From Octopus sinensis (Eukaryota), in the NCBI RefSeq assembly GCF_006345805.1, contig NC_043013.1:10974001-11038000 (forward strand): a stretch of DNA of 64,000 nt, in the 5' to 3' direction. Numbering within the stretch: the stretch's first letter is position 1; the number at the start of each line of letters is the position of its first letter. The notes beneath the pieces were generated by a model. The model was not told where the DNA came from and searched no databases. It saw only the letters and a list, made by a program, of their open reading frames with translations. Both the position numbers and the translations under genes were made by a program. Below are positions 37,401-39,458 of the stretch, piece after piece.

Positions 37401-37843
37401 AAAAAAGCGAACATTAGTGAAGTAATATATATAATCATAAAATACAGTGTAAATTTTATGACTAATACATAGTCTTTGGACTAAATTTTTACACGTTAGG
37501 GCACTTGAAATAAAAATTTTAATTATTTTCCATTTCCCTTGATATGATTAAGTATATATATATATATATATAATATATATATATATATATATATATTATA
37601 TATATATATATATATATATATAATTAATCAATATAGGGTGGCAAAAAATTTTGTAGAATTTTTTGCCACCAGCGGCCTAGTGGGAAAAAATTAATAGTCA
37701 TAGACCATTTTTAAGTTCAACATCACAATCAAGGAACGGCCATAATAGGCCATTCACCCACTAGAAATAACAGCCAAAGCTTCAACCGCAAAATAACATT
37801 AATTCCGTAAACCAGGAGAAAATTAAAAAACATTTACCCTGTA

Positions 37844-37948
37844 ATTTCTTATACGATGCACCGTTTCATCTACTGTTTAATGGTAAACTAACCTGATTAA
37901 ATTAAATCAAGCGAATCTTCCATAGGCCCTTAGATTCGTCAGTAAGAA
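37844..37948 (-). ncRNA. Type I hammerhead ribozyme (minus-strand copy)
   Basis: uucuua-CUGACGA-aucua...uagau-GAAAC-ggugcauc-GUA-uaagaa. Confidence 0.75.
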
Positions 37949-38206
37949 TGGTCTATTAAAAATGGTCTATGACTATTTAATTTTTTCCCACTAGGCCGCT
38001 GGTGGCAAAAAAATTCTACAAAATTTTTTGCCACCCTATATTGATTAATTATGAATTTTCTGGTTAATTCCGTAATGGAATCGGCGGCTTATATTTATTT
38101 GCTGCCGATAAATTTGGCGCGAGTGCGATGATTTGAAAATTTTAGGTCAGATATTGCCGAGGCAGGTACAGAAATGCCTCGTGAAAATATCTGTTCCGAT
38201 CTGGCT

Positions 38207-38313
38207 ATTTCTTACTGACGAATCTAAGGGCCTATGGAAGATTGGCATGATTTAATTTAATCAGGTTAGTTTACCATTAAACAGTAGATGAAACGGTGCA
38301 TCGTATAAGAAAT
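38207..38313 (+). ncRNA. Type I hammerhead ribozyme (plus-strand copy), predicted cleavage after GUA at 38305
   Basis: Stem I ATTTCTTA(38207-14)/TAAGAAAT(38306-13); CTGACGA 38215-21; stem II ATCTA/TAGAT closing a 58-nt loop; GAAA 38290-93; near-palindromic stem III ACGGTGCATCGT. Confidence 0.8.
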
Positions 38314-39458
38314 TACAGGGTAAATGTTTTTTATTTTCTCCTGTTTACGAATTAATGTTATTTTGCGGTTGAAGCTTTGGCTGTTATTTCTAGTGGGTGA
38401 ATGGCCTATTATGGCCGTTCCTTGATTGTGATATATATATATATATATATATATATATATATATATATATATTATATATATATATATATATATATATATA
38501 TATATATATATATATATATATATAATATAAATATATATATATATACGTGTTTACATAGGTATATATGTATATATGTATTTATGTATGTATGTAAGTATAT
38601 GCACGTATATGTATGTATGCATATACGTATGCACACACGCACGCTAATACATAACTATTGTCTGCTTGAGTGTATGTATGTGAGTGTGCGCATGCGTTCG
38701 TGTGCGTGTGTGTGTGTGTGTGTGTGTGTGTGGTGTGTGTGTGTGTGTGTGTGTGCGTGCGTGCGTGTGTGTGTTTGTCCGCGTCAGTATGTGTTTGCGT
38801 GCCTTGCCTGTCCGCTGCTGCTCGATATAATCACGCCTATGACGCTTATTCTTTTGCTCACTTGCCTGTCATCATCCAACCGCTCTGCAAACCCGCCCGC
38901 CAGCCAGCTAGCCAGCCTTCCTCGTCAATATAATGATTATTACTGTGCCCTTGGCAATCGATGGTGTCAAAATATAATAAAAATAAACGAAAGGCCGACA
39001 TATCTAATGCTAACGTTTAAAACAATTATGTCTGCTTGTTCGTACATATATGTGTGTGTGCGCGTTTGTGTATAAGCGTGTATGTGGAAGAGGTTAAGGA
39101 AGGGGAGATAAGCAATAACCGAAATAATAAACAAGATATAAAAGCATCATAAATCTATGAACCACGCACACTTCAAACGTCAGAAGCTGGAATGGTGAAT
39201 TTTCGATTCAATTTTGTGTTATTCTCTATTTTCTTATTTATATATAGGTTTTTTTAAAAATTTTCTTTTCTTCACAGTGCTCCGGTTTATTGTATTTCTG
39301 GGCGATAATAATTTTTTTATTGCTTTTGTTTCGCCTTTTTGAGGAGGAGGAGGAGAAATTTATATTTAGTTTAAAAATTAAAATCCTGATTTTTTTTTTA
39401 GTATTTACCCCGTTATTTTCAATGAATATGAGAGTATAAGTATGAAAAAAATATACAT

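What the first reader, a model, noticed from the sequence alone, without database searches (positions are those of the whole stretch)
37620..38432. Interleaved inverted-repeat element (A-B-A'-C-B') placing hammerheads on both strands inside a (TA)n tract
Seen: A (37620-37714) is mirrored at 37956-38052 and B (37722-37948) at 38209-38432. The arms cross, so they cannot both form simple hairpins at once. B and B' each carry the hammerhead, so a transcript in either direction could self-cleave. The A'-C-B' unit (about 480 nt, non-coding) is a chain of hairpins: ggtggcaaaaaa/ttttttgccacc, atcggcggc/gctgccgat, cagatatt..cgaggca/tgcctcg..aatatctg and aatggcc/ggccgtt. A 10-bp aatggtctat duplication marks the B/A' junction. 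Inference: a retrozyme-like or Penelope pLTR-derived non-autonomous element with inverted 5' segments made by template switching. B and B' differ mainly by homopolymer indels, so a long-read assembly artefact is a real alternative for the inversion, though not for the ribozyme itself.
Basis: partly seen in the sequence, partly recalled or inferred. Interest (0 to 1): 0.75.

Follow-up and report, generated by a model that had tools for sequence, protein, structure and literature searches.

The report
Two-armed hammerhead retrozyme, Penelope-type insertion
The crossed repeat is one back-to-back, two-armed copy of a young 487-base non-coding repeat with at least 1,876 units in this genome; it carries a predicted self-cutting hammerhead RNA and was likely pasted into a TA microsatellite by a borrowed Penelope-type retrotransposon enzyme, a known kind of element whose paired ends offer a test of how those enzymes start copying.

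Summary
The repeats and both hammerhead folds are real. The 'interleaving' is simply two head-to-head arms cut from a tandem of one circularly permuted 487-nt unit: left arm 37948→37620 (minus), right arm 37956→38432 (plus). The family has 1,876 exact copies of a hammerhead 26-mer, roughly 880 sites, mostly in (TA)n. Arms end at two fixed points 104 nt apart (E1, E2): 67 of 78 simple two-armed insertions pair one E1 with one E2, as this one does. Both arms share one haplotype. This is the inverted, 5'-truncated, 'tail-at-one-end' anatomy described for Penelope-like elements, on a non-LTR retrozyme. An artefact is unlikely, though this locus's own junction was not bridged in four runs. B pairs with B' in either transcript, burying both ribozymes, so this copy is probably not a source of circles. 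Cleavage, circular RNA and the partner enzyme are not shown. The scan already reported this architecture on other DNA of this genome. New member of a known kind.

The parts
37553..37622 (.). Left (TA)n target tract
   Evidence: TA-rich on both flanks at 46 of 64 family sites
37620..37948 (-).
37620..37721 (-). [quoted passage not shown]
37846..37948 (-). Type I hammerhead motif, minus-strand copy; predicted cut between 37852 and 37851; stem I 6 bp
37949..37955 (.). Head-to-head joint: 7 inserted bases copied from the start of the right arm, giving the 10-bp duplication 37947-37956 / 37961-37970
   Evidence: sequence; 26 of 78 family joints carry insertions, 37 carry 1-6 nt microhomology
37956..38432 (+).
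38207..38313 (+). Type I hammerhead motif: stem I 8 bp, core at 38215, stem II 5 bp plus ~65-nt extension, GAAA at 38290, short helix III with a palindromic loop; predicted cut 38305/38306
   Evidence: core 0.26% variable against 1.7% elsewhere, compensatory pair in stem II
38001..38052 (+). Hairpin followed by TTGATT (38041-38046) and the E2 end point (38052), read through in this arm
   Evidence: sequence; end histogram
38400..38432 (+). Hairpin followed by TTGATT (38422-38427) and the E1 end point
   Evidence: sequence; end histogram
38431..38590 (.). Right (TA)n target tract

Best explanation
This locus is one two-armed, head-to-head insertion in a TA microsatellite of a young, multi-copy, non-coding 487-nt tandem repeat that carries a predicted type I hammerhead ribozyme (a non-LTR retrozyme) and is likely mobilised by a Penelope-like element's RT/GIY-YIG protein. 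Shown: unit, copy number, tandem arrays, TA targets, head-to-head arms, two fixed 3' ends paired one to each arm, variable 5' ends, one haplotype per insertion. Inferred steps: (1) a tandem array elsewhere is transcribed, and the hammerheads cut out monomers that circularise; (2) the borrowed protein cuts both strands of a (TA)n tract; (3) each target 3' end primes reverse transcription at one of two internal RNA sites, E1 and E2, each just after a hairpin and a TTGATT word; (4) each enzyme runs a variable distance, in other copies several units, on the same RNA or on sister RNAs from one source; (5) the two unfinished cDNA ends are joined by microhomology-type end joining, which here left a 7-nt templated insertion. 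In this copy the E2 arm ran 329 nt and the E1 arm 477 nt, which produces the A-B-A'-C-B' pattern. The copy itself is probably a dead end, because each strand has one ribozyme and B pairs with B'.
For: Family: 781 candidates (40 scored); 1,876 exact hammerhead 26-mers, control 0; first 100 rows fall in 47 clusters, and all 19 clusters with both strands read minus-then-plus. Similarity-ranked set, 64 sites: 49 multi-arm blocks all head-to-head; 39 of 41 with both ends classifiable are E1+E2, 2 are E2+E2 (p 3.6e-10; one duplicated locus counted twice). Position-ranked set on one chromosome, 43 stretches after dropping 2 segmental duplicates: 30 of 32 joints E1+E2, 2 with another end (p 9e-10). 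Merged, de-duplicated: 67 of 78. Substitution distance within an arm 0.96%, between arms 0.91%, between loci 2.79% (109 loci). Near-private variants at positions with three or more copies: 21 fixed in all copies of both arms, 4 fixed where one arm covers, 22 partial, 228 singletons. Ribozyme core 8 of 3,087 calls variant; stem II pair A-U 198 / G-C 38. 5' ends are not enriched at the cut site (7 of 134, 4.7 expected), and 44 of 134 arms cross it twice or more, so the template was a circle or an uncut multimer. The genome holds intact RT+GIY-YIG Penelope-like ORFs whose 3' ends run into (TA)n. Literature: two RT start sites bounding the 'tail', both strands cut and extended, predicted dimer (PMC11167929, parts 1-2 of 4); inverted 5'-truncated copy, tail at one end, TA targets (PMC8557442, passages).
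Against: No partner shown: no nucleotide homology between the unit and 50 Penelope-like loci (best blastn E 0.48; best nhmmer E 2.4 outside the family's own copy). Pattern searches for a related hammerhead gave only family variants, one distant non-coding relative and one apparent chance match. Self-cleavage, expression and circles are untested; the hammerhead fold lies 2.1-2.6 kcal/mol above the free MFE; in the PAc system cleavage was not needed for insertion (PMC11167929), and 8 of 9 Xenopus retrozymes tested did not cleave in vitro (bioRxiv 10.64898/2026.07.22.740005, part 3). The 21 fixed variants come from only 7 loci, and some are shared by two loci, so they may mark small subfamilies with a homogeneous source array, not one circle. 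Loci were chosen for holding a near-full unit or the ribozyme, which favours long arms. The tail is 104 nt against 30-40 nt in print. 29 blocks are single-armed (17, 12); three of them hide a very short second arm. 7 of 78 joints have both 5' ends within 5 nt of each other (1.9 expected, p 0.003), which a minority fold-back route would explain.
Confidence: 0.8

Rival explanations
1. Same element and same two-site priming, but the template is a long uncut multimeric transcript of a master array (as for autonomous Penelope tandem transcripts). The hammerhead is inherited from a pLTR and circles play no part.
For: Homogeneous source arrays would also give one haplotype per insertion; arrays of up to about 14 units exist as possible masters; hammerhead cleavage was dispensable for PAc insertion in vitro (PMC11167929, part 2).
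Against: Core conservation and a compensatory stem II pair suggest selection on the ribozyme; 5' truncation would shorten daughters each round, yet several haplotypes each have long homogeneous arms; animal retrozymes were found mainly as circles (PMC7229834, Discussion).
Confidence: 0.3
2. Fold-back or self-priming: one cDNA is made from E2, turns back and copies itself as far as E1, or an antisense template self-primes (model in PMC3846280).
For: Would explain the shared haplotype and the E1+E2 pairing; 7 of 78 joints are near-perfect fold-backs (p 0.003), several with arm lengths differing by about the tail length.
Against: A fold-back copy cannot be longer than its template: the E1 arm exceeds the E2 arm minus 90 nt in 37 of 67 insertions, including this one (477 against 329); 65 of 78 joints are offset by more than 20 nt.
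Confidence: 0.08
3. L1-style twin priming or a single template switch on one linear RNA, giving two non-overlapping segments, one inverted.
For: Head-to-head geometry with both 3' ends on target DNA and microhomology at the joint.
Against: The arms overlap (B = B'); one arm's 5' end abuts the other's start in 5 of 67 insertions against 6.7 by chance; both outer ends are fixed sites.
Confidence: 0.04
4. The inversion at this locus is a long-read or assembly artefact.
For: This joint (37951-37954) had no cover in four public runs (a hole proves nothing); three homopolymer-type deletions in B' look like read errors.
Against: Read fold-back chimeras are mirror images, while these arms are offset and end at two biological sites; each arm has its own substitutions; the layout recurs with different joints across the genome; contigs of four public runs show other minus-to-plus joints of the family (table 5; most with under 30 letters on the short side, library type not on record).
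Confidence: 0.03

Closest known systems
Metazoan non-LTR retrozymes (Cervera and de la Pena 2020, PMC7229834, passages and Discussion read; Li, Clavereau and Pollet 2026, bioRxiv 10.64898/2026.07.22.740005, parts 1-3 of 5 read)
   Same: Non-coding tandem unit of a few hundred bases, GC under 45% (36%), one type I hammerhead per unit, dispersed monomers to multimers, proposed mobilisation by Penelope-like elements.
   Different: Unit is 487 nt with a ~65-nt stem II extension that Rfam misses. Most insertions are two-armed with paired fixed ends; the word 'inverted' does not occur in PMC7229834. Cleavage and circles were shown there and are untested here; no pLTR homology found here.
Endonuclease-bearing Penelope-like elements: inverted pLTR and 'tail' (Craig et al. 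2021, PMC8557442, passages; Arkhipova et al. 2013, PMC3846280, passages; Frangieh et al. 2024, PMC11167929, parts 1-2 of 4)
   Same: Partial tandems, inverted 5'-truncated copy head-to-head, tail at one end only, (TA)n targets, two internal RT start sites bounding the tail.
   Different: No ORF; tail 104 nt against 30-40 nt; the one-E1-one-E2 rule is counted here (67 of 78), while the passages read describe it only as 'often' or 'optionally' at one end.
Penelope-associated type I hammerheads (Cervera and de la Pena 2014, PMC4209133, passages)
   Same: Short helix III with a palindromic loop, long helix II, dimer-type architecture; that paper already reports pairs of hammerheads 100-700 bp apart on opposite strands.
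   Different: Here the motif lies in a non-coding tandem unit, with an 8-bp stem I and a much longer stem II.

Membership tests
Non-LTR retrozyme | Short non-coding unit in head-to-tail tandem copies | tested here: met
   487-488 nt spacing, arrays up to about 14 units; no ORF of 110 aa or more within the unit
Non-LTR retrozyme | Type I hammerhead in each unit with intact core | tested here: met
   descriptor hits; core 0.26% variable, compensatory stem II pair; Rfam models do not match
Non-LTR retrozyme | [quoted passage not shown] | tested here: not met
   Not met by this locus (one hammerhead per strand); met by other family loci. The family qualifies; this copy is an inactive-type member.
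Non-LTR retrozyme | Dispersed and multi-copy, low GC, no flanking long direct repeats | tested here: met
   1,876 units, about 880 sites estimated, 36% GC, TA flanks
Non-LTR retrozyme | Self-cleavage and accumulation of circular monomer RNA | not testable with these tools
   Only assembled contigs were served and no run was on record as RNA
Penelope-like element derivative (non-autonomous) | Inverted 5'-truncated copy, head-to-head, with a tail at one end | tested here: met
Penelope-like element derivative (non-autonomous) | Insertion into AT-rich or (TA)n targets | tested here: met
   46 of 64 sites TA-rich on both flanks; flanks listed
Penelope-like element derivative (non-autonomous) | Sequence homology to the pLTR of an autonomous element | tested here: inconclusive
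   None in 50 loci drawn from 149 scored of 5,029 GIY-YIG candidates or by four patterns; most families were not sampled
Autonomous Penelope-like element | ORF with telomerase-like RT and GIY-YIG endonuclease | tested here: not met
   no such ORF in the element or the window

The most novel reading that the evidence does not exclude
Each insertion records a Penelope-type enzyme dimer priming both strands of a cut TA tract at two fixed sites, 104 nt apart, on one ribozyme-made RNA circle. The two enzymes lap the circle independently and their unfinished cDNAs are joined head-to-head. This would account in one model for the tandem, inverted and tail features of Penelope-like elements and be in vivo support for rolling-circle spread of animal retrozymes.
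Probability: 0.4. Interest if true: 0.65.

Novelty: new member of a known kind. Interest (0 to 1): 0.38.

Why it matters
The element class is known, and so are opposite-strand hammerhead pairs and inverted Penelope structures. What is useful is the clean footprint: two fixed start sites used one per arm, one haplotype per insertion, arms that run through the ribozyme site. How Penelope-like elements form tandem and inverted structures is called undefined in PMC8557442, and retrozyme mobilisation by them is still a hypothesis in PMC7229834 and bioRxiv 2026.07.22.740005. A 487-nt RNA with mapped start sites is a ready substrate for the in vitro assay of PMC11167929. I did not find the paired-end rule counted in print (searches; open-access library only; no supplements read), but the scan has reported it for several other repeats of this genome.

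Tried and rejected
Rfam at E up to 1 and up to 10: no hammerhead family, only repeat-driven noise. DNA search of the genome with the 105-nt tail alone: no candidates, uninformative because common words are skipped. A Penelope-specific Pfam accession recalled from memory is not in the library; GIY-YIG PF01541 was used. Partner search: 50 Penelope-like loci show no homology to the unit; patterns with altered flanks or a shorter stem II returned family variants, one apparent chance match (L151) and one distant non-coding relative (L234); ORFs beside family copies are an LRR/TIR gene, RT and endonuclease fragments of other elements and one separate Penelope-like fragment. A 255-nt loose end just upstream of the ribozyme core is a single-copy 5' truncation joint, not a recurrent second element. 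Sequencing runs: no RNA holder listed; one run guessed as RNA holds pieces of the unit, which shows nothing on expression. This locus's joint had no cover in X1, X2, X6 or X17; these may be other individuals and a hole proves nothing. L1-type twin priming and whole-arm fold-back were tested and rejected for this locus. The bacterial promoter/terminator scan is not meaningful for an animal repeat. Sequence look-up of earlier scan findings returned nothing for this unit, nor near this place. Supplements were not read; the consensus file of PMC8557442 could name a partner.

Full report
Observation. The two inverted pairs are as described: A/A' 97.9% over 97 columns, B/B' 97.8% over 227. A type I hammerhead descriptor over the whole window found two hits, one in B' on the plus strand (38207-38313, predicted cut after 38305) and one in B on the minus strand (37948-37846). 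Rfam misses both. The element sits between (TA)n tracts, in repeat-rich DNA; no ORF of 110 aa or more lies within it. Earlier scan notes call the genome an octopus (e1-8806981); my calls do not establish that.

What the pattern is. Searching the genome with 37950-38432 gave 781 candidates, 40 scored, with copies 93-99% alike, many spaced 487-488 nt in tandem. The 7 bases between A and B are the piece that joins one unit to the next, and contigs of four public runs show that same head-to-tail join (loose ends before 37956). Read on the minus strand, B + 7 nt + A is therefore one continuous arm (unit position 254 through the join to 97). A'-C-B' is a second arm (1 to 477) on the plus strand. The two 5' ends meet in the middle and the two 3' ends touch the TA tracts. 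The crossing of A and B follows from the circular permutation. Positions are on the 484-nt scale of this copy, whose B' lacks three single bases present in B and in other copies.

The family. An exact 26-nt piece of the ribozyme occurs 1,876 times, the reversed control 0 times. The first 100 rows form 47 clusters, suggesting about 880 sites; all 19 clusters with both strands read minus then plus. The 3' ends pile up at two points, E1 (about 477) and E2 (about 97 of the next unit), 104 nt apart, while 5' ends are scattered. Each end follows a hairpin and the word TTGATT and shares a few bases with (TA)n (sequence). In 64 similarity-ranked sites, 49 multi-arm blocks were all head-to-head and 17 were single; of 41 with both ends at E1 or E2, 39 had one of each (p 3.6e-10; includes this locus and one duplicated locus twice). 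In a position-ranked set on one chromosome (45 stretches, 2 dropped as segmental duplicates), 30 of 32 joints were E1+E2, 2 had another end, and 12 sites were single. Merged and de-duplicated, 67 of 78 simple two-armed insertions are E1+E2, 2 are E2+E2 and 9 have one other end. Joints show 1-6 nt microhomology in 37, are blunt in 11, carry insertions in 26 and longer overlaps in 4.

One source per insertion. Over 109 loci (5 with duplicated or double insertions left out), units differ by 0.96% within an arm, 0.91% between the arms of one insertion and 2.79% between loci. Near-private variants were fixed in all copies of both arms 21 times (7 loci), fixed in a single covering arm 4 times, partial 22 times and singletons 228 times. 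5' ends are not enriched at the ribozyme cut (7 of 134, 4.7 expected), and 44 of 134 arms cross that site at least twice, so cut linear monomers were not the template. A circle read in laps or an uncut multimer from a homogeneous array both fit. Locus choice favoured long arms.

The ribozyme. Twelve core positions vary in 8 of 3,087 calls (0.26%) against 1.7% elsewhere; stem II has a compensatory A-U/G-C pair (198/38) and its first pair is U-U in 56 of 228 copies. The hammerhead fold lies 2.1-2.6 kcal/mol above the free optimum. Helix III is short with a palindromic loop, the type reported to work as a dimer (PMC4209133, passages). Activity is untested.

Mechanism. The layout matches Penelope-like elements: inverted 5'-truncated copy, tail at one end, TA targets (PMC8557442, passages; PMC3846280, passages). 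The purified anole Penelope protein cuts and extends both target strands, starts at two internal RNA sites that bound the tail, and is predicted to be a dimer (PMC11167929, parts 1-2 of 4). I infer that a borrowed protein primes one target strand at E1 and the other at E2 and that the unfinished cDNAs are end-joined. L1-type twin priming fails (5 of 67 abutting, 6.7 by chance). Fold-back copying fails for 37 of 67 insertions including this one, but 7 of 78 joints are near-perfect fold-backs (p 0.003), so a minority may arise that way or by both enzymes reaching the same RNA end. The genome has young intact RT+GIY-YIG ORFs of 775-883 codons whose 3' ends run into (TA)n, but none of 50 loci tested is homologous to the unit and pattern searches found no partner.

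Artefact. The arms are offset, end at family-wide sites and carry separate substitutions, and other minus-to-plus joints of the family appear in contigs of four public runs. This locus's own joint was not covered in four runs, so it lacks independent read support.

Comparison and verdict. The family meets the testable features of metazoan non-LTR retrozymes (PMC7229834, passages and Discussion; bioRxiv 10.64898/2026.07.22.740005, parts 1-3 of 5), and opposite-strand hammerhead pairs are already in print (PMC4209133). Five literature searches showed no description of this family or a count of the paired-end rule; no supplements were read. The scan's earlier notes describe the same architecture for several repeats of this genome, possibly including this family (a sequence look-up found nothing). 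I had noted the two ends before reading them; the single-template test was prompted partly by them. New member of a known kind, with a useful mechanistic footprint; interest 0.38.

Noticed in passing
window 37453-37527: A separate short repeat just left of the TA tract: contig depth of thousands against about 16-80 in the adjacent unique DNA, with a shared loose end upstream. One match in the window.
   Followed up: partly
L234:1500-1900 (G000:C23:305376): Distantly related type I hammerhead (65% over stem I/II, long AT-rich stem II) in a non-coding stretch ending in (TA)n; probably a sister retrozyme family.
   Followed up: partly
L128:6351-7771: Another hammerhead-bearing inverted repeat pair (minus at 6829, plus at 7329), unrelated in sequence, about 2 kb from an intact Penelope-like ORF.
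   Followed up: no
L123-L129, L141 (e.g. L127:2532-4874, L128:2421-4763): Young Penelope-like family with intact ~780-codon RT + C-terminal GIY-YIG ORFs, 88-99% identical, with a cysteine cluster in the linker like the one described for Neptune/Nematis clades; a second family at 46% identity (L125, L130).
   Followed up: partly
family alignment, unit positions 267/334 (window 38222/38289): First pair of stem II is U-U in 56 of 228 copies, a whole subfamily; a U-U at the base of stem II is reported for an axolotl retrozyme (PMC7229834 passage).
   Followed up: partly
L219, L221, L224, L225, L148, L217, L072, L081: Insertions whose two arms stop at nearly the same unit position and differ in length by about the tail, as if both enzymes reached the same RNA end or one strand folded back.
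   Followed up: partly
L194, L195, L196 (G000:C1 81.9-82.2 Mb): The same insertion with identical joint and flanks three times, beside a LINE-type RT ORF: a recent segmental duplication or an assembly duplicate.
   Followed up: no
L200:5431-7689: 753-codon LRR + TIR (Toll-like receptor type) ORF about 1.3 kb from a family copy.
   Followed up: no
window 39470-39900: SINE-like repeat split by a TA/TG tract; similar text recurs in ORF translations elsewhere in the window; label recalled, not tested.
   Followed up: no
window 52704-53132 (-): 142-codon frame resembling a mariner-type transposase fragment (resemblance recalled, not searched).
   Followed up: no
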